NCBI GenBank assembly: GCA_964016885.1
Contig: CAXHJY010001318.1
Span: 17,313-81,312 of the forward strand
Direction of reading: 5' to 3'
Source of the DNA: Eledone cirrhosa
Lineage: Eukaryota
DNA: 64,000 nucleotides
The notes under the pieces are model-generated. The model searched no databases and was not told where the DNA came from. It saw only the letters and a program-made list of their open reading frames with translations. Shown here piece by piece: positions 27,587-39,476 of the stretch (position 1 is the first letter of the stretch; every line of letters begins with the position of its first letter). A program made the translations under genes and the position numbers.

Positions 27587-30500
27587 ATAAAAACAAATAA
27601 CGAAACGAAATTAAATTTCGTTTCGTTTGTAACTCACTTTTGTATGACTGACGCTTAAACAATTAAGTTAAAAATGTACATCCACATATGTATACTGAAA
27701 TACTAGTATGCATATGAATACACACACGTATACATATGTAGATGTACCGAGTTTTTCACTGGTCACTTTACTGTGAGTGTCCAGCTATTCTGTATGTAAA
27801 CACACAGACAAACCGGTTTTTAGAGTCATACTGGTTTTTGAGGAAACACCTTTCCTCTATTCTCCAGAAAGCCAGACAAGGAATATTGAACTAGTTTCGA
27901 TGTTGTTACATCTCATCAGCAATATTTACCTATCTTCCGGCCTTTTTAGAGAATCGTAAAAGCACATATCGTTATATGCTTTTTCTATGAAAATTAGTAG
28001 TGGGCAGACTAATTTGCATAGACCGTGAGTACGTACCGGTTCAACGGAGACGATAAAAACAAATAACGAAACGAAATTAAATTTCGTTTCGTTTGTAACT
28101 CACTTTTGTATGACTGACGCTTAAACAATTAAGTTAAAAATGTACATCCACATATGTATACTGAAATACTAGTATGCATATGAATACACACACGTATACA
28201 TATGTAGATGTACCGAGTTTTTCACTGGTCACTTTACTGTGAGTGTCCAGCTATTCTGTATGTAAACACACAGACAAACCGGTTTTTAGAGTCATACTGG
28301 TTTTTGAGGAAACACCTTTCCTCTATTCTCCAGAAAGCCAGACAAGGAATATTGAACTAGTTTCGATGTTGTTACATCTCATCAGCAATATTTACCTATC
28401 TTCCGGCCTTTTTAGAGAATCGTAAAAGCACATATCGTTATATGCTTTTTCTATGAAAATTAGTAGTGGGCAGACTAATTTGCATAGACCGTGAGTACGT
28501 ACCGGTTCAACGGAGACGATAAAAACAAATAACGAAACGAAATTAAATTTCGTTTCGTTTGTAACTCACTTTTGTATGACTGACGCTTAAACAATTAAGT
28601 TAAAAATGTACATCCACATATGTATACTGAAATACTAGTATGCATATGAATACACACACGTATACATATGTAGATGTACCGAGTTTTTCACTGGTCACTT
28701 TACTGTGAGTGTCCAGCTATTCTGTATGTAAACACACAGACAAACCGGTTTTTAGAGTCATACTGGTTTTTGAGGAAACACCTTTCCTCTATTCTCCAGA
28801 AAGCCAGACAAGGAATATTGAACTAGTTTCGATGTTGTTACATCTCATCAGCAATATTTACCTATCTTCCGGCCTTTTTAGAGAATCGTAAAAGCACATA
28901 TCGTTATATGCTTTTTCTATGAAAATTAGTAGTGGGCAGACTAATTTGCATAGACCGTGAGTACGTACCGGTTCAACGGAGACGATAAAAACAAATAACG
29001 AAACGAAATTAAATTTCGTTTCGTTTGTAACTCACTTTTGTATGACTGACGCTTAAACAATTAAGTTAAAAATGTACATCCACATATGTATACTGAAATA
29101 CTAGTATGCATATGAATACACACACGTATACATATGTAGATGTACCGAGTTTTTCACTGGTCACTTTACTGTGAGTGTCCAGCTATTCTGTATGTAAACA
29201 CACAGACAAACCGGTTTTTAGAGTCATACTGGTTTTTGAGGAAACACCTTTCCTCTATTCTCCAGAAAGCCAGACAAGGAATATTGAACTAGTTTCGATG
29301 TTGTTACATCTCATCAGCAATATTTACCTATCTTCCGGCCTTTTTAGAGAATCGTAAAAGCACATATCGTTATATGCTTTTTCTATGAAAATTAGTAGTG
29401 GGCAGACTAATTTGCATAGACCGTGAGTACGTACCGGTTCAACGGAGACGATAAAAACAAATAACGAAACGAAATTAAATTTCGTTTCGTTTGTAACTCA
29501 CTTTTGTATGACTGACGCTTAAACAATTAAGTTAAAAATGTACATCCACATATGTATACTGAAATACTAGTATGCATATGAATACACACACGTATACATA
29601 TGTAGATGTACCGAGTTTTTCACTGGTCACTTTACTGTGAGTGTCCAGCTATTCTGTATGTAAACACACAGACAAACCGGTTTTTAGAGTCATACTGGTT
29701 TTTGAGGAAACACCTTTCCTCTATTCTCCAGAAAGCCAGACAAGGAATATTGAACTAGTTTCGATGTTGTTACATCTCATCAGCAATATTTACCTATCTT
29801 CCGGCCTTTTTAGAGAATCGTAAAAGCACATATCGTTATATGCTTTTTCTATGAAAATTAGTAGTGGGCAGACTAATTTGCATAGACCGTGAGTACGTAC
29901 CGGTTCAACGGAGACGATAAAAACAAATAACGAAACGAAATTAAATTTCGTTTCGTTTGTAACTCACTTTTGTATGACTGACGCTTAAACAATTAAGTTA
30001 AAAATGTACATCCACATATGTATACTGAAATACTAGTATGCATATGAATACACACACGTATACATATGTAGATGTACCGAGTTTTTCACTGGTCACTTTA
30101 CTGTGAGTGTCCAGCTATTCTGTATGTAAACACACAGACAAACCGGTTTTTAGAGTCATACTGGTTTTTGAGGAAACACCTTTCCTCTATTCTCCAGAAA
30201 GCCAGACAAGGAATATTGAACTAGTTTCGATGTTGTTACATCTCATCAGCAATATTTACCTATCTTCCGGCCTTTTTAGAGAATCGTAAAAGCACATATC
30301 GTTATATGCTTTTTCTATGAAAATTAGTAGTGGGCAGACTAATTTGCATAGACCGTGAGTACGTACCGGTTCAACGGAGACGATAAAAACAAATAACGAA
30401 ACGAAATTAAATTTCGTTTCGTTTGTAACTCACTTTTGTATGACTGACGCTTAAACAATTAAGTTAAAAATGTACATCCACATATGTATACTGAAATACT

Positions 30501-33029
30501 AGTATGCATATGAATACACACACGTATACATATGTAGATGTACCGAGTTTTTCACTGGTCACTTTACTGTGAGTGTCCAGCTATTCTGTATGTAAACACA
30601 CAGACAAACCGGTTTTTAGAGTCATACTGGTTTTTGAGGAAACACCTTTCCTCTATTCTCCAGAAAGCCAGACAAGGAATATTGAACTAGTTTCGATGTT
30701 GTTACATCTCATCAGCAATATTTACCTATCTTCCGGCCTTTTTAGAGAATCGTAAAAGCACATATCGTTATATGCTTTTTCTATGAAAATTAGTAGTGGG
30801 CAGACTAATTTGCATAGACCGTGAGTACGTACCGGTTCAACGGAGACGATAAAAACAAATAACGAAACGAAATTAAATTTCGTTTCGTTTGTAACTCACT
30901 TTTGTATGACTGACGCTTAAACAATTAAGTTAAAAATGTACATCCACATATGTATACTGAAATACTAGTATGCATATGAATACACACACGTATACATATG
31001 TAGATGTACCGAGTTTTTCACTGGTCACTTTACTGTGAGTGTCCAGCTATTCTGTATGTAAACACACAGACAAACCGGTTTTTAGAGTCATACTGGTTTT
31101 TGAGGAAACACCTTTCCTCTATTCTCCAGAAAGCCAGACAAGGAATATTGAACTAGTTTCGATGTTGTTACATCTCATCAGCAATATTTACCTATCTTCC
31201 GGCCTTTTTAGAGAATCGTAAAAGCACATATCGTTATATGCTTTTTCTATGAAAATTAGTAGTGGGCAGACTAATTTGCATAGACCGTGAGTACGTACCG
31301 GTTCAACGGAGACGATAAAAACAAATAACGAAACGAAATTAAATTTCGTTTCGTTTGTAACTCACTTTTGTATGACTGACGCTTAAACAATTAAGTTAAA
31401 AATGTACATCCACATATGTATACTGAAATACTAGTATGCATATGAATACACACACGTATACATATGTAGATGTACCGAGTTTTTCACTGGTCACTTTACT
31501 GTGAGTGTCCAGCTATTCTGTATGTAAACACACAGACAAACCGGTTTTTAGAGTCATACTGGTTTTTGAGGAAACACCTTTCCTCTATTCTCCAGAAAGC
31601 CAGACAAGGAATATTGAACTAGTTTCGATGTTGTTACATCTCATCAGCAATATTTACCTATCTTCCGGCCTTTTTAGAGAATCGTAAAAGCACATATCGT
31701 TATATGCTTTTTCTATGAAAATTAGTAGTGGGCAGACTAATTTGCATAGACCGTGAGTACGTACCGGTTCAACGGAGACGATAAAAACAAATAACGAAAC
31801 GAAATTAAATTTCGTTTCGTTTGTAACTCACTTTTGTATGACTGACGCTTAAACAATTAAGTTAAAAATGTACATCCACATATGTATACTGAAATACTAG
31901 TATGCATATGAATACACACACGTATACATATGTAGATGTACCGAGTTTTTCACTGGTCACTTTACTGTGAGTGTCCAGCTATTCTGTATGTAAACACACA
32001 GACAAACCGGTTTTTAGAGTCATACTGGTTTTTGAGGAAACACCTTTCCTCTATTCTCCAGAAAGCCAGACAAGGAATATTGAACTAGTTTCGATGTTGT
32101 TACATCTCATCAGCAATATTTACCTATCTTCCGGCCTTTTTAGAGAATCGTAAAAGCACATATCGTTATATGCTTTTTCTATGAAAATTAGTAGTGGGCA
32201 GACTAATTTGCATAGACCGTGAGTACGTACCGGTTCAACGGAGACGATAAAAACAAATAACGAAACGAAATTAAATTTCGTTTCGTTTGTAACTCACTTT
32301 TGTATGACTGACGCTTAAACAATTAAGTTAAAAATGTACATCCACATATGTATACTGAAATACTAGTATGCATATGAATACACACACGTATACATATGTA
32401 GATGTACCGAGTTTTTCACTGGTCACTTTACTGTGAGTGTCCAGCTATTCTGTATGTAAACACACAGACAAACCGGTTTTTAGAGTCATACTGGTTTTTG
32501 AGGAAACACCTTTCCTCTATTCTCCAGAAAGCCAGACAAGGAATATTGAACTAGTTTCGATGTTGTTACATCTCATCAGCAATATTTACCTATCTTCCGG
32601 CCTTTTTAGAGAATCGTAAAAGCACATATCGTTATATGCTTTTTCTATGAAAATTAGTAGTGGGCAGACTAATTTGCATAGACCGTGAGTACGTACCGGT
32701 TCAACGGAGACGATAAAAACAAATAACGAAACGAAATTAAATTTCGTTTCGTTTGTAACTCACTTTTGTATGACTGACGCTTAAACAATTAAGTTAAAAA
32801 TGTACATCCACATATGTATACTGAAATACTAGTATGCATATGAATACACACACGTATACATATGTAGATGTACCGAGTTTTTCACTGGTCACTTTACTGT
32901 GAGTGTCCAGCTATTCTGTATGTAAACACACAGACAAACCGGTTTTTAGAGTCATACTGGTTTTTGAGGAAACACCTTTCCTCTATTCTCCAGAAAGCCA
33001 GACAAGGAATATTGAACTAGTTTCGATGT
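27587..33029 (-). repeat. Left arm: ~11.7 tandem copies of a 466-bp hammerhead-containing monomer (retrozyme-like)
   Basis: Exact 466-bp period (ORF track 27777, 28243, ...). Copies appear identical. The arm starts directly after (TA)n. Confidence 0.97.
27882..27926 (-). ncRNA. Minimal type I hammerhead (first of 11 intact copies in the left arm, period 466)
   Basis: Reverse complement of aatattg CTGATGA gatgt aaca acatc GAAA c ta gtt caatatt. Confidence 0.9.
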
Positions 33030-33033
33030 TGTT

Positions 33034-36000
33034 ACATCGAAACTAGTTCAATATTCCTTGTCTGGCTTTCTGGAGAATAGAGGAAAGGTGTTTCCTCAAA
33101 AACCAGTATGACTCTAAAAACCGGTTTGTCTGTGTGTTTACATACAGAATAGCTGGACACTCACAGTAAAGTGACCAGTGAAAAACTCGGTACATCTACA
33201 TATGTATACGTGTGTGTATTCATATGCATACTAGTATTTCAGTATACATATGTGGATGTACATTTTTAACTTAATTGTTTAAGCGTCAGTCATACAAAAG
33301 TGAGTTACAAACGAAACGAAATTTAATTTCGTTTCGTTATTTGTTTTTATCGTCTCCGTTGAACCGGTACGTACTCACGGTCTATGCAAATTAGTCTGCC
33401 CACTACTAATTTTCATAGAAAAAGCATATAACGATATGTGCTTTTACGATTCTCTAAAAAGGCCGGAAGATAGGTAAATATTGCTGATGAGATGTAACAA
33501 CATCGAAACTAGTTCAATATTCCTTGTCTGGCTTTCTGGAGAATAGAGGAAAGGTGTTTCCTCAAAAACCAGTATGACTCTAAAAACCGGTTTGTCTGTG
33601 TGTTTACATACAGAATAGCTGGACACTCACAGTAAAGTGACCAGTGAAAAACTCGGTACATCTACATATGTATACGTGTGTGTATTCATATGCATACTAG
33701 TATTTCAGTATACATATGTGGATGTACATTTTTAACTTAATTGTTTAAGCGTCAGTCATACAAAAGTGAGTTACAAACGAAACGAAATTTAATTTCGTTT
33801 CGTTATTTGTTTTTATCGTCTCCGTTGAACCGGTACGTACTCACGGTCTATGCAAATTAGTCTGCCCACTACTAATTTTCATAGAAAAAGCATATAACGA
33901 TATGTGCTTTTACGATTCTCTAAAAAGGCCGGAAGATAGGTAAATATTGCTGATGAGATGTAACAACATCGAAACTAGTTCAATATTCCTTGTCTGGCTT
34001 TCTGGAGAATAGAGGAAAGGTGTTTCCTCAAAAACCAGTATGACTCTAAAAACCGGTTTGTCTGTGTGTTTACATACAGAATAGCTGGACACTCACAGTA
34101 AAGTGACCAGTGAAAAACTCGGTACATCTACATATGTATACGTGTGTGTATTCATATGCATACTAGTATTTCAGTATACATATGTGGATGTACATTTTTA
34201 ACTTAATTGTTTAAGCGTCAGTCATACAAAAGTGAGTTACAAACGAAACGAAATTTAATTTCGTTTCGTTATTTGTTTTTATCGTCTCCGTTGAACCGGT
34301 ACGTACTCACGGTCTATGCAAATTAGTCTGCCCACTACTAATTTTCATAGAAAAAGCATATAACGATATGTGCTTTTACGATTCTCTAAAAAGGCCGGAA
34401 GATAGGTAAATATTGCTGATGAGATGTAACAACATCGAAACTAGTTCAATATTCCTTGTCTGGCTTTCTGGAGAATAGAGGAAAGGTGTTTCCTCAAAAA
34501 CCAGTATGACTCTAAAAACCGGTTTGTCTGTGTGTTTACATACAGAATAGCTGGACACTCACAGTAAAGTGACCAGTGAAAAACTCGGTACATCTACATA
34601 TGTATACGTGTGTGTATTCATATGCATACTAGTATTTCAGTATACATATGTGGATGTACATTTTTAACTTAATTGTTTAAGCGTCAGTCATACAAAAGTG
34701 AGTTACAAACGAAACGAAATTTAATTTCGTTTCGTTATTTGTTTTTATCGTCTCCGTTGAACCGGTACGTACTCACGGTCTATGCAAATTAGTCTGCCCA
34801 CTACTAATTTTCATAGAAAAAGCATATAACGATATGTGCTTTTACGATTCTCTAAAAAGGCCGGAAGATAGGTAAATATTGCTGATGAGATGTAACAACA
34901 TCGAAACTAGTTCAATATTCCTTGTCTGGCTTTCTGGAGAATAGAGGAAAGGTGTTTCCTCAAAAACCAGTATGACTCTAAAAACCGGTTTGTCTGTGTG
35001 TTTACATACAGAATAGCTGGACACTCACAGTAAAGTGACCAGTGAAAAACTCGGTACATCTACATATGTATACGTGTGTGTATTCATATGCATACTAGTA
35101 TTTCAGTATACATATGTGGATGTACATTTTTAACTTAATTGTTTAAGCGTCAGTCATACAAAAGTGAGTTACAAACGAAACGAAATTTAATTTCGTTTCG
35201 TTATTTGTTTTTATCGTCTCCGTTGAACCGGTACGTACTCACGGTCTATGCAAATTAGTCTGCCCACTACTAATTTTCATAGAAAAAGCATATAACGATA
35301 TGTGCTTTTACGATTCTCTAAAAAGGCCGGAAGATAGGTAAATATTGCTGATGAGATGTAACAACATCGAAACTAGTTCAATATTCCTTGTCTGGCTTTC
35401 TGGAGAATAGAGGAAAGGTGTTTCCTCAAAAACCAGTATGACTCTAAAAACCGGTTTGTCTGTGTGTTTACATACAGAATAGCTGGACACTCACAGTAAA
35501 GTGACCAGTGAAAAACTCGGTACATCTACATATGTATACGTGTGTGTATTCATATGCATACTAGTATTTCAGTATACATATGTGGATGTACATTTTTAAC
35601 TTAATTGTTTAAGCGTCAGTCATACAAAAGTGAGTTACAAACGAAACGAAATTTAATTTCGTTTCGTTATTTGTTTTTATCGTCTCCGTTGAACCGGTAC
35701 GTACTCACGGTCTATGCAAATTAGTCTGCCCACTACTAATTTTCATAGAAAAAGCATATAACGATATGTGCTTTTACGATTCTCTAAAAAGGCCGGAAGA
35801 TAGGTAAATATTGCTGATGAGATGTAACAACATCGAAACTAGTTCAATATTCCTTGTCTGGCTTTCTGGAGAATAGAGGAAAGGTGTTTCCTCAAAAACC
35901 AGTATGACTCTAAAAACCGGTTTGTCTGTGTGTTTACATACAGAATAGCTGGACACTCACAGTAAAGTGACCAGTGAAAAACTCGGTACATCTACATATG

Positions 36001-38868
36001 TATACGTGTGTGTATTCATATGCATACTAGTATTTCAGTATACATATGTGGATGTACATTTTTAACTTAATTGTTTAAGCGTCAGTCATACAAAAGTGAG
36101 TTACAAACGAAACGAAATTTAATTTCGTTTCGTTATTTGTTTTTATCGTCTCCGTTGAACCGGTACGTACTCACGGTCTATGCAAATTAGTCTGCCCACT
36201 ACTAATTTTCATAGAAAAAGCATATAACGATATGTGCTTTTACGATTCTCTAAAAAGGCCGGAAGATAGGTAAATATTGCTGATGAGATGTAACAACATC
36301 GAAACTAGTTCAATATTCCTTGTCTGGCTTTCTGGAGAATAGAGGAAAGGTGTTTCCTCAAAAACCAGTATGACTCTAAAAACCGGTTTGTCTGTGTGTT
36401 TACATACAGAATAGCTGGACACTCACAGTAAAGTGACCAGTGAAAAACTCGGTACATCTACATATGTATACGTGTGTGTATTCATATGCATACTAGTATT
36501 TCAGTATACATATGTGGATGTACATTTTTAACTTAATTGTTTAAGCGTCAGTCATACAAAAGTGAGTTACAAACGAAACGAAATTTAATTTCGTTTCGTT
36601 ATTTGTTTTTATCGTCTCCGTTGAACCGGTACGTACTCACGGTCTATGCAAATTAGTCTGCCCACTACTAATTTTCATAGAAAAAGCATATAACGATATG
36701 TGCTTTTACGATTCTCTAAAAAGGCCGGAAGATAGGTAAATATTGCTGATGAGATGTAACAACATCGAAACTAGTTCAATATTCCTTGTCTGGCTTTCTG
36801 GAGAATAGAGGAAAGGTGTTTCCTCAAAAACCAGTATGACTCTAAAAACCGGTTTGTCTGTGTGTTTACATACAGAATAGCTGGACACTCACAGTAAAGT
36901 GACCAGTGAAAAACTCGGTACATCTACATATGTATACGTGTGTGTATTCATATGCATACTAGTATTTCAGTATACATATGTGGATGTACATTTTTAACTT
37001 AATTGTTTAAGCGTCAGTCATACAAAAGTGAGTTACAAACGAAACGAAATTTAATTTCGTTTCGTTATTTGTTTTTATCGTCTCCGTTGAACCGGTACGT
37101 ACTCACGGTCTATGCAAATTAGTCTGCCCACTACTAATTTTCATAGAAAAAGCATATAACGATATGTGCTTTTACGATTCTCTAAAAAGGCCGGAAGATA
37201 GGTAAATATTGCTGATGAGATGTAACAACATCGAAACTAGTTCAATATTCCTTGTCTGGCTTTCTGGAGAATAGAGGAAAGGTGTTTCCTCAAAAACCAG
37301 TATGACTCTAAAAACCGGTTTGTCTGTGTGTTTACATACAGAATAGCTGGACACTCACAGTAAAGTGACCAGTGAAAAACTCGGTACATCTACATATGTA
37401 TACGTGTGTGTATTCATATGCATACTAGTATTTCAGTATACATATGTGGATGTACATTTTTAACTTAATTGTTTAAGCGTCAGTCATACAAAAGTGAGTT
37501 ACAAACGAAACGAAATTTAATTTCGTTTCGTTATTTGTTTTTATCGTCTCCGTTGAACCGGTACGTACTCACGGTCTATGCAAATTAGTCTGCCCACTAC
37601 TAATTTTCATAGAAAAAGCATATAACGATATGTGCTTTTACGATTCTCTAAAAAGGCCGGAAGATAGGTAAATATTGCTGATGAGATGTAACAACATCGA
37701 AACTAGTTCAATATTCCTTGTCTGGCTTTCTGGAGAATAGAGGAAAGGTGTTTCCTCAAAAACCAGTATGACTCTAAAAACCGGTTTGTCTGTGTGTTTA
37801 CATACAGAATAGCTGGACACTCACAGTAAAGTGACCAGTGAAAAACTCGGTACATCTACATATGTATACGTGTGTGTATTCATATGCATACTAGTATTTC
37901 AGTATACATATGTGGATGTACATTTTTAACTTAATTGTTTAAGCGTCAGTCATACAAAAGTGAGTTACAAACGAAACGAAATTTAATTTCGTTTCGTTAT
38001 TTGTTTTTATCGTCTCCGTTGAACCGGTACGTACTCACGGTCTATGCAAATTAGTCTGCCCACTACTAATTTTCATAGAAAAAGCATATAACGATATGTG
38101 CTTTTACGATTCTCTAAAAAGGCCGGAAGATAGGTAAATATTGCTGATGAGATGTAACAACATCGAAACTAGTTCAATATTCCTTGTCTGGCTTTCTGGA
38201 GAATAGAGGAAAGGTGTTTCCTCAAAAACCAGTATGACTCTAAAAACCGGTTTGTCTGTGTGTTTACATACAGAATAGCTGGACACTCACAGTAAAGTGA
38301 CCAGTGAAAAACTCGGTACATCTACATATGTATACGTGTGTGTATTCATATGCATACTAGTATTTCAGTATACATATGTGGATGTACATTTTTAACTTAA
38401 TTGTTTAAGCGTCAGTCATACAAAAGTGAGTTACAAACGAAACGAAATTTAATTTCGTTTCGTTATTTGTTTTTATCGTCTCCGTTGAACCGGTACGTAC
38501 TCACGGTCTATGCAAATTAGTCTGCCCACTACTAATTTTCATAGAAAAAGCATATAACGATATGTGCTTTTACGATTCTCTAAAAAGGCCGGAAGATAGG
38601 TAAATATTGCTGATGAGATGTAACAACATCGAAACTAGTTCAATATTCCTTGTCTGGCTTTCTGGAGAATAGAGGAAAGGTGTTTCCTCAAAAACCAGTA
38701 TGACTCTAAAAACCGGTTTGTCTGTGTGTTTACATACAGAATAGCTGGACACTCACAGTAAAGTGACCAGTGAAAAACTCGGTACATCTACATATGTATA
38801 CGTGTGTGTATTCATATGCATACTAGTATTTCAGTATACATATGTGGATGTACATTTTTAACTTAATT

Positions 38869-38873
<5 letters not shown>
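33034..38873 (+). repeat. Right arm: ~12.5 tandem copies of the same monomer, inverted relative to the left arm
   Basis: Reverse complement of the left arm, 397 bp longer, ending in (TA)n. Confidence 0.97.
33477..33521 (+). ncRNA. Minimal type I hammerhead (first of 12 intact copies in the right arm; last at 38603-38647)
   Basis: Stem I aatattg/caatatt (extendable with agg/cct and gccgga/tctggc); CTGATGA 33484-33490; stem II gatgt/acatc; GAAA 33505-33508; palindromic stem III ACTAGT; predicted cleavage after GUU at 33514. Confidence 0.9.
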
Positions 38874-38908
<35 letters not shown>

Positions 38909-39050: not shown

Positions 39051-39180
39051 TTAAACATTCGTTTTATGTTTGCAAAAGTGTGTTCCTTTGTCGCGTGTCA
39101 TATATATGTATAATATGTGTATATATGTGTATAAGTTTGTGGGTATGTGTAAGTATATATATATATATATATATATATAT

Positions 39181-39445
39181 AACGAAGGAAATGTGGTAAG
39201 GAACCAGGTGGACCATAACGCACCAAAGTACTCAATACTTAGGGTAGTAGAGTGGGTAATAGGAACGAGTAGGACCCCGACGGCTGAGCTCAAGCCGTTT
39301 CGACGGCTAATTCTGGACTAAATGAAAATTTTTATCCTGGTATATGAATAGCCGGCTATTCATATACCAGGATAAAAATTTTCATTTAATCCAGAATTAG
39401 CCGTCGAAACGGCTTGAGCTCAGCCGTCGGGGTCCTACTCGTTCC

Positions 39446-39447
<2 letters not shown>
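39181..39447. mobile_element. TA-embedded fold-back hammerhead element
   Basis: Palindrome centred at 39353/39354 with arms 39260-39447. GAAA 39406-39409; stem III acggct/agccgt; GUC 39426-39428. Confidence 0.85.

Positions 39448-39476
<29 letters not shown>

What the first reader, a model, noticed from the sequence alone, without database searches (positions are those of the whole stretch)
33008..33055. The palindrome turns exactly at hammerhead stem II
Seen: the centre reads aatattgaactagtttc-gatgt-tgtt-acatc-gaaactagttcaatatt. The symmetry axis (33030-33033) is the antisense of the stem II loop (aaca), and the CUGAUGA half is missing from this unit. Inference: the 5-bp self-complementary stem II provided the microhomology, either for two nascent cDNAs to anneal or for one cDNA to fold back. 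The ribozyme fold would then be doing a second, DNA-level job in integration. The junction lies upstream of the predicted cleavage site, so the template was uncleaved or circular at this point.
Basis: partly seen in the sequence, partly recalled or inferred. Interest (0 to 1): 0.9.

Follow-up and report, generated by a model that had tools for sequence, protein, structure and literature searches.

The report
Double-primed hammerhead retrozyme insertion
This 11-kb palindrome is a very young insertion of a small ribozyme-bearing mobile RNA that was copied into DNA from two fixed start points at once and joined head to head; its turning at the ribozyme's small hairpin is a one-off, because other copies in the genome turn elsewhere, more often just past the ribozyme's cut site.

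Summary
Observation confirmed: an 11.3-kb head-to-head array of a 466-nt type I hammerhead repeat turns at stem II, with 5 bp shared by both arms. The arms end at two different fixed monomer positions (326 and 257) in (TA)n, as do other copies of this family (6,097 ribozyme cores, 2,017 exact 326/(TA)n ends; 75 of 90 resolved insertions inverted). This matches Penelope-like two-site ('tail') priming of both target strands on one RNA. So two cDNAs annealing on an uncleaved or circular template fits, and plain fold-back does not. Stem II is not a hotspot: 3 near-symmetric junctions genome-wide against about 4 expected. The longer tail hairpin has 22, and the 30 nt just 3' of the cleavage site have 23, of which 19 have both arms one pass long. 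What remains of interest: natural records of double-primed, probably rolling-circle integration, and a junction excess pointing to the self-cleaved 5' end (or the stem I helix) as a reverse-transcription boundary.

The parts
27570..27589 (.). Left target remnant, (TA)10; its last 3 bases (ATA) are shared with the monomer end
27587..33038 (-). Left arm: 11.7 tandem units of the 466-nt retrozyme, RNA sense on the minus strand, outer end at monomer position 326 (distal priming site, end of the tail), inner end at position 1; 11 complete hammerheads
   Evidence: 0 mismatches to the monomer
33025..33038 (.). Head-to-head junction at hammerhead stem II (GATGT-TGTT-ACATC); ACATC 33034-33038 belongs to both arms (5-bp microhomology); loop in antisense reading on the + strand
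   Evidence: this exact junction occurs once in the assembly
33034..38873 (+). Right arm: 12.5 tandem units, RNA sense on +, inner end at monomer position 10, outer end at position 257 (proximal priming site); 12 complete hammerheads
33466..33537 (+). First complete type I hammerhead of the right arm (CUGAUGA core, stem II, GAAA, 2-bp palindromic stem III, GUU cleavage triplet, predicted cut between 33514 and 33515)
   Evidence: (RF02275, 36.5 bits); cut site by standard hammerhead numbering (established knowledge)
33747..33816 (+). One copy of the 69-nt 'tail' between the two priming sites (positions 257-326), containing the 13-bp hairpin at 286-314
   Evidence: (TA)n loose ends at positions 326, 257 and 252 also in public short-read contigs
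33515..33536 (+). One copy of positions 25-46, just 3' of the cleavage site (stem I and its extension), where near-symmetric junctions of other loci pile up
38872..38905 (.). Right target remnant, (TA)17; first TA shared with the monomer end; no target-site duplication can be read in the microsatellite

Best explanation
The palindrome is one recent integration of a non-LTR retrozyme RNA by a Penelope-like (RT plus GIY-YIG) enzyme acting in trans. The enzyme nicks both strands of a (TA)n tract. Each 3' end primes reverse transcription on the same RNA, one at position 326 and one at position 250-258, on either side of a hairpin. Both polymerases run towards the RNA 5' side; on a circle (or an uncleaved multimer) they go round many times and give tandem arms. 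The two cDNA 3' ends are then joined head to head using whatever 0-4 nt (sometimes a whole hairpin's length) of complementarity they offer. Here the ends stopped at positions 1 and 10, where stem II offered ACATC/GATGT. Stem II served as a chance microhomology, not as a dedicated device. Shown: the anatomy, the two fixed outer ends, the near-identity of the two arms within a locus, and the junction counts. Inferred: the enzyme's identity, double priming, the circular template, and end-joining.
For: Outer ends 326 and 250-258 in (TA)n: in 6 of 7 inverted loci with both ends in view found by monomer homology (one had 434/257), and second-arm ends at 250-258 in 56 of 58 with the end in view (short arms were picked by that end). 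2,017 exact 326/(TA)n ends. Of the first 100 listed, 99 were fetched and 1 duplicate dropped: 75 inverted head to head, 15 with no inverted arm called, 8 running off the fetched stretch. Either arm can be the longer (e.g. 49 vs 940 nt in L141; 1,024 vs 10 nt in L139), so neither is a copy of the other. Arms of one locus differ by a median 0.7% against 6.5% between loci (51 loci; 27 had no closer arm elsewhere), which points to one template variant. 43 of 75 have both arms crossing the cleavage site. Microhomology averaged 1.6 nt against 0.75 for random joins; 11 of 61 had 3 nt or more against 7% expected. Public short-read contigs show (TA)n ends at 326/257/252 and 13 listed head-to-head joints, none at stem II (12 more joints not shown). 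One insertion (L109/L259) joins retrozyme sequence directly to a sense-strand fragment with an RT-like YLDD motif; its middle part is 70% identical over 112 aa to a GIY-YIG-bearing ORF in L145. Literature: a purified PLE cuts and extends both strands, starts RT at two internal sites that bound the 'tail', and is modelled as a dimer (PMC11167929, main text read); PLEs carry an inverted 5'-truncated copy, a tail and a (TA)n bias (PMC8557442, passages).
Against: No autonomous PLE that shares this RNA's tail was identified. The L259 pieces hit no Pfam family, so the link to a PLE rests on one chimeric locus and on architecture. The tail is 69-74 nt, longer than the 30-40 bp described for PLEs. Arm-to-arm identity could be helped by gene conversion between inverted arms. 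The window's own centre could not be checked in reads: the runs laid carry other alleles at 33380 and 33457 and the list of pieces was cut. The two arms are close in length (11.7 and 12.5 units), which the model does not require. Circle versus uncleaved linear multimer cannot be told apart from an invariant array.
Confidence: 0.8

Rival explanations
1. One reading: hammerhead stem II is a recurrent, functional joining device in integration.
For: Clean 5-bp join in the window. Two more near-symmetric joins in stem II (L088, L089). Among 14 distinct junctions with one arm crossing the cleavage site and the other at 27-43, 7 stop at positions 9-15 (my reading; post hoc), a weak hint of a polymerase pause at stem II's 3' strand.
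Against: 3 junctions against 3.5-4.2 expected; 0 in the GUC subfamily, which makes up about half of the sampled insertions with a readable core; 22 at the tail hairpin with a narrower search window; 0 of 75 and 2 of 75 arm ends in positions 1-14; 0 of 13 joints in short-read contigs. As a DNA hairpin stem II is the weakest of six tested (-2.0 kcal/mol against -11.8 for the tail hairpin).
Confidence: 0.05
2. One cDNA folded back at stem II and copied itself (self-priming, as proposed for palindromes at PLE inverted junctions).
For: The loop is kept in the cDNA reading (TGTT) on the strand that carries the left-arm cDNA. Self-priming has been proposed for PLE head-to-head palindromes (PMC3846280, passages).
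Against: A copy of the left arm would stop at 326 and run into the left flank. The right arm is 388 nt longer and ends at 257, the second priming site used across the family.
Confidence: 0.04
3. The insertion is real but its symmetric centre arose later, by deletion or conversion at the centre of a long inverted array that had a longer spacer.
For: Long inverted arrays recombine, and a short hairpin can guide slippage (established knowledge).
Against: All units are identical with no mismatch over 11.3 kb, leaving little time. Known palindrome processing tends to add central asymmetry rather than remove it (recalled).
Confidence: 0.04
4. The centre is a sequencing or assembly artefact (fold-back or template-switch read inside a collapsed array) on a small unplaced contig.
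For: The contig is not one of the chromosome-scale ones (C1345); units are 100% identical; no second copy or empty site of the left flank was found in the assembly; no read test of the centre was possible.
Against: Both outer ends are the canonical 326/257 pair, so one head-to-head junction is required and only one is present. Arrays elsewhere in the same assembly keep unit-to-unit differences, and head-to-head joints occur in independent short-read contigs.
Confidence: 0.07

Closest known systems
Non-LTR retrozymes of animals (Cervera and de la Pena 2020, PMC7229834; Li et al. 2026 preprint 10.64898/2026.07.22.740005)
   Same: Non-coding tandem repeat, low GC (about 35%), one type I hammerhead per unit, strongly self-paired monomer (z = -10.4), monomers to long multimers, co-occurrence with PLEs; unit length within the 51-972 bp range of the 2026 preprint.
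   Different: Those papers propose circRNA reverse transcription and PLE mobilisation but, in the parts read, describe no inverted double-armed insertions, fixed priming sites or (TA)n targeting. Here most resolved insertions are head-to-head with two fixed ends. Expression and cleavage were not tested here.
Penelope-like elements with GIY-YIG endonuclease (Penelope/Poseidon, Neptune, Naiad; PMC8557442, PMC3846280, PMC11167929)
   Same: Inverted 5'-truncated copy head to head with the direct copy, a tail present at one end only, (TA)n target without a readable duplication, type I hammerhead, two internal RT start sites.
   Different: No ORF; arms are whole-monomer tandem arrays of up to at least 31 units; tail 69-74 nt rather than 30-40 bp; junctions can be mapped against the cleavage site.
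LINE-1 twin priming
   Same: Both target strands prime on one RNA; the two cDNAs are joined head to head, often by microhomology.
   Different: In L1 the second priming site is opportunistic and the first is the poly(A) tail; here both sites are fixed and internal, and both arms can be multimeric.

Membership tests
Type I hammerhead ribozyme (HH9-like) | CUGANGA and GAAA core, NUH triplet, stems I-III with stem I open | tested here: met
   Rfam alignment, (36.5 bits, below gathering 52 because stem III is minimal); fold
Type I hammerhead ribozyme (HH9-like) | Stem II pairing kept by compensatory change | tested here: met
   Pair 2 of stem II is A..T in 106 and T..A in 94 of 201 cores read, mismatched in 1 (related copies, not independent events)
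Type I hammerhead ribozyme (HH9-like) | Self-cleavage at the predicted site | not testable with these tools
   Needs in vitro transcription
Non-LTR retrozyme | Short non-coding tandem repeat with one type I hammerhead per unit, no LTR | tested here: met
   466-nt period; 23 complete ribozymes in the window; no ORF of 200 aa or more in the array
Non-LTR retrozyme | Dispersed mobile family | tested here: met
   6,097 exact cores of the GUU type; 2,017 exact 326/(TA)n ends
Non-LTR retrozyme | Expressed as linear and circular RNA | not testable with these tools
   No RNA holder listed; multimeric identical arms are indirect support only
PLE-type integration | Inverted 5'-truncated copy head to head with the direct copy | tested here: met
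   75 of 90 resolved insertions
PLE-type integration | Tail at one end only, bounded by two RT start sites | tested here: met
   Ends at 326 and 250-258; tail 69-74 nt, longer than the 30-40 bp in print
PLE-type integration | AT-rich or (TA)n target | tested here: met
   the sample was selected for a (TA)n end, the and loci were not
PLE-type integration | An autonomous PLE that shares the cis-acting tail sequence | tested here: inconclusive
   Not found in about 830 kb of fetched loci; one retrozyme-to-PLE-like chimera (L109/L259); no genome-wide protein search was run
Autonomous Penelope-like element | Encodes RT and GIY-YIG endonuclease | tested here: not met
   The array is non-coding; it works like a PLE passenger and is not a PLE

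The most novel reading that the evidence does not exclude
These roughly 2,000 insertions record the full integration cycle of an animal retrozyme. A PLE dimer clamps the tail hairpin and primes two cDNAs on one RNA. On circles both roll and build inverted tandem arrays in a single event. On self-cleaved linear monomers both run to the ribozyme-made 5' end, where the enzyme stutters on a 5-6-nt template stretch (CAAGG-type reiterations at 7 of 44 junctions), like telomerase at its template boundary. The ribozyme would then shape integration through its cleavage site, not through stem II, in contrast to the in vitro finding that cleavage is dispensable for PLE insertion.
Probability: 0.4. Interest if true: 0.7.

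Novelty: new variant of a known kind. Interest (0 to 1): 0.5.

Why it matters
How animal retrozymes integrate, whether tandem arrays come straight from reverse transcription of a circle, how PLE inverted structures form, and what the hammerhead contributes are open in the papers read (PMC7229834 discussion; PMC8557442; PMC11167929). This family gives fixed priming coordinates, two template states (crossing the ribozyme, or stopping just 3' of its cut site) and about 2,000 natural junctions. That turns these questions into a census and a simple in vitro assay. The stem II coincidence itself carries no special meaning.

Tried and rejected
Stem II hotspot: rejected. Fold-back: rejected on unequal ends. 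Looked for an empty allele or second copy of the left flank to read a target-site duplication: only the window itself matched in full, the rest were partial repeat hits; the right flank was not searched. Reads: no RNA holder listed. The contigs of three runs (two samples) hold the family but other alleles, and the one raw-read run laid nothing, so the window's centre was not tested. Rfam at gathering level found nothing; the miRNA and sRNA hits are hairpin noise. The 70-nt GC-rich insert at the L168 junction matches no Rfam family. The second palindrome at 39179-39448 was tested as an independent case of a turn at a ribozyme cut site: no hammerhead was found at its axis, so it gives no support. 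L143 looked like a two-element chimera but can be read as a nested insertion; not used. mis-segmented one subfamily and was replaced. Earlier scan findings: none returned. Literature searches returned no paper on inverted retrozyme arrays or on twin priming in PLEs. The library lacks most subscription papers. The bioRxiv supplements and the model figure S9 of PMC7229834 were not seen and may bear on novelty.
Full report
The observation. It is the centre of a perfect inverted repeat of a 466-nt unit. Taking window 33491 as monomer position 1, the left arm is antisense and runs from position 326 (window 27587) to 1 (33038). The right arm is sense and runs from 10 (33034) to 257 (38873). Both match the monomer throughout and share ACATC. 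The unit holds an HH9-like type I hammerhead (below Rfam's gathering score) with stem II at 1-14 and the predicted cut after 24, and it folds far better than shuffles (z -10.4). Both outer ends lie in (TA)n. The window is on contig C1345 of a 3.0-Gb genome.

The family. The core occurs 6,097 times exactly (GUU type only). A homology search returned loci whose inverted copies end at 325-326 on one side and 251-258 on the other in 6 of 7 cases with both ends in view. The 326/(TA)n end occurs 2,017 times. I fetched 99 of the first 100 listed (the first 135 Mb of C1) and dropped one duplicate. Of the 98, 75 are inverted head to head, 15 had no inverted arm called, and 8 ran off the fetched stretch. 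Four of the 75 second arms were assigned by hand, and L168, counted among the 15, is inverted with a 70-nt insert. Second arms end at 250-258 in 56 of 58 with the end in view. Public short-read contigs show the same (TA)n ends and 13 listed head-to-head joints at scattered positions, so the architecture is not a long-read artefact.

Mechanism. On each side the strand whose 3' end lies in the target continues as antisense, that is as cDNA. Either arm may be far longer than the other, so each was copied from a sense template, not from the other arm. The arms of a locus differ by a median 0.7% against 6.5% between loci (51 loci), so they come from one RNA variant. This is what a PLE enzyme does in vitro: it cuts and extends both strands and starts at two internal sites that bound the 'tail' (PMC11167929; parts 1-2 of 4 read, covering the main text). 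Inverted 5'-truncated copies, tails and (TA)n bias are PLE hallmarks (PMC8557442, PMC3846280; passages). Retrozymes have been proposed as PLE passengers (PMC7229834, passages and discussion; 10.64898/2026.07.22.740005, parts 1-3 of 5). One locus joins retrozyme sequence to a sense fragment with a YLDD motif, related to a GIY-YIG ORF nearby in the sample. The PLE label for it rests on that and on my recall of PLE motifs, since Pfam did not hit the fragment itself. In 43 of 75 insertions both arms cross the cleavage site, so circles or uncleaved multimers are common templates. The invariant 24-unit array here is most simply rolling-circle copying of one molecule (inference). Joins use little homology: mean 1.6 nt against 0.75 at random (61 flush joins).

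Testing stem II. The exact junction occurs once. Allowing any spacer up to 30 nt gives 3 loci including this one, and 0 in the GUC subfamily, which is about half of the sample with a readable core. Uniform independent ends predict 3.5-4.2 for 1,400-1,700 inverted insertions. The same kind of search gives 2 at the 396-421 hairpin, 7 at the base of the long hairpin, 22 at the tail hairpin with a spacer of only 15 and 23 for positions 16-46. Anchors differ in length and in conservation, so these counts are comparable only roughly. In the sample, arm ends in 1-14 were 0 and 2 of 75, while 226-262 held 18 and 17 (6 expected). Fold-back fails for this locus because the right arm is longer than the left and ends at the second priming site. 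Annealing of the left cDNA's ACATC end to the right cDNA's GATGT end explains every base. This is post hoc and not seen in the unselected sample, so it is at most a weak pause.

What the census points to instead. The 23 junctions at 16-46 are far above expectation (Poisson p 2e-10 against 4.3). In 19 of the 23 neither arm is longer than one pass (my count), against 6 of 75 in the sample. The Fisher test was run with 18 and is not matched for position. Widening the spacer to 31-60 adds only 21, where uniform ends would give 2.6 times the first window. Arms reach 25-26 repeatedly, and a few single-pass arms pass the site (L197 to 21-23, L251 to 12-14, L253 to 14). The simplest reading is run-off from the 5' end of a self-cleaved monomer with some trimming (my odds about 55%). 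Stalling of the leading polymerase in the 25-54/425-459 helix on its first pass, with the second catching up, predicts much the same (about 35%; pairing). Seven of the 44 junctions carry short reiterations or restarts of the CAAGG stretch at 32-36. These could be template-boundary slippage by a telomerase-related enzyme or ordinary templated insertions from end-joining repair; I could not separate the two.

Limits. The centre of this locus was not verified in reads, no empty site was found, no RNA evidence was available, and no partner PLE was identified. The sample comes from one chromosome arm and was selected for an exact 326 end. Literature searches found no description of inverted retrozyme arrays, but the library is incomplete and supplements were not read.

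Verdict. A real, very young retrozyme insertion with PLE-type double-ended anatomy. The stem II axis is a correct observation and a chance event. Interest lies in the family-wide record of double priming and in the junction excess just 3' of the cleavage site. Interest 0.5; new variant of a known kind.

Noticed in passing
window 39179-39448: A second (TA)n-inserted head-to-head element with the same two-end design (arms of about 95 nt around a CCGG axis, 80-nt tail on the left). At least 20 near-identical whole palindromic copies lie elsewhere, and longer non-palindromic parents continue past the axis. No hammerhead was found at the axis. Possibly a MITE-like derivative of another PLE-mobilised family.
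   Followed up: partly
L109 / L259 (G000:C1:41489652-41492120): A retrozyme arm joined through 40 nt of inverted retrozyme to a frameshifted 1.2-kb retroelement fragment (YLDD motif, thumb-like region, GIY-YIG-like end); a possible template switch between a PLE RNA and the retrozyme.
   Followed up: partly
L168 (G000:C1, near 107307500): 70-nt GC-rich insert of unknown origin between two single-pass arms ending at 38 and 43; no Rfam match.
   Followed up: partly
G000 junctions at C2:352049194, C4:336899312, C5:10814541, C4:255994422, C4:80802302, C15:12059508, C21:33412539: Short reiterations or restarts of the CAAGG stretch (monomer 32-36) at the junction.
   Followed up: partly
monomer positions 226-262, sample L091-L239: Inner ends of both arms pile up around the second priming site (18 and 17 of 75, 6 expected), including many second arms of only 10-22 nt; suggests collision with, or early release from, the second primer.
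   Followed up: partly
G000:C1:5738326-5752444 and C1:81846868-81879593: Much longer arrays (31 units in one arm; more than 30 kb with recurrent unit variants), suggesting local expansion after insertion towards satellite DNA.
   Followed up: no
L240 and G000:C28:15832640: Perfectly symmetric junctions at the 6-bp palindromes AATATT (stem I) and ACTAGT (stem III): any short self-complement in the ribozyme can serve as a join.
   Followed up: no
window 26984-26998: An isolated CTGATGAGGTC motif in the left flank, possibly a decayed hammerhead of another family.
   Followed up: no
window 13115-14540 and 1307-1868: Minisatellite arrays of about 100 bp and 128 bp built on microsatellite-rich units.
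   Followed up: no
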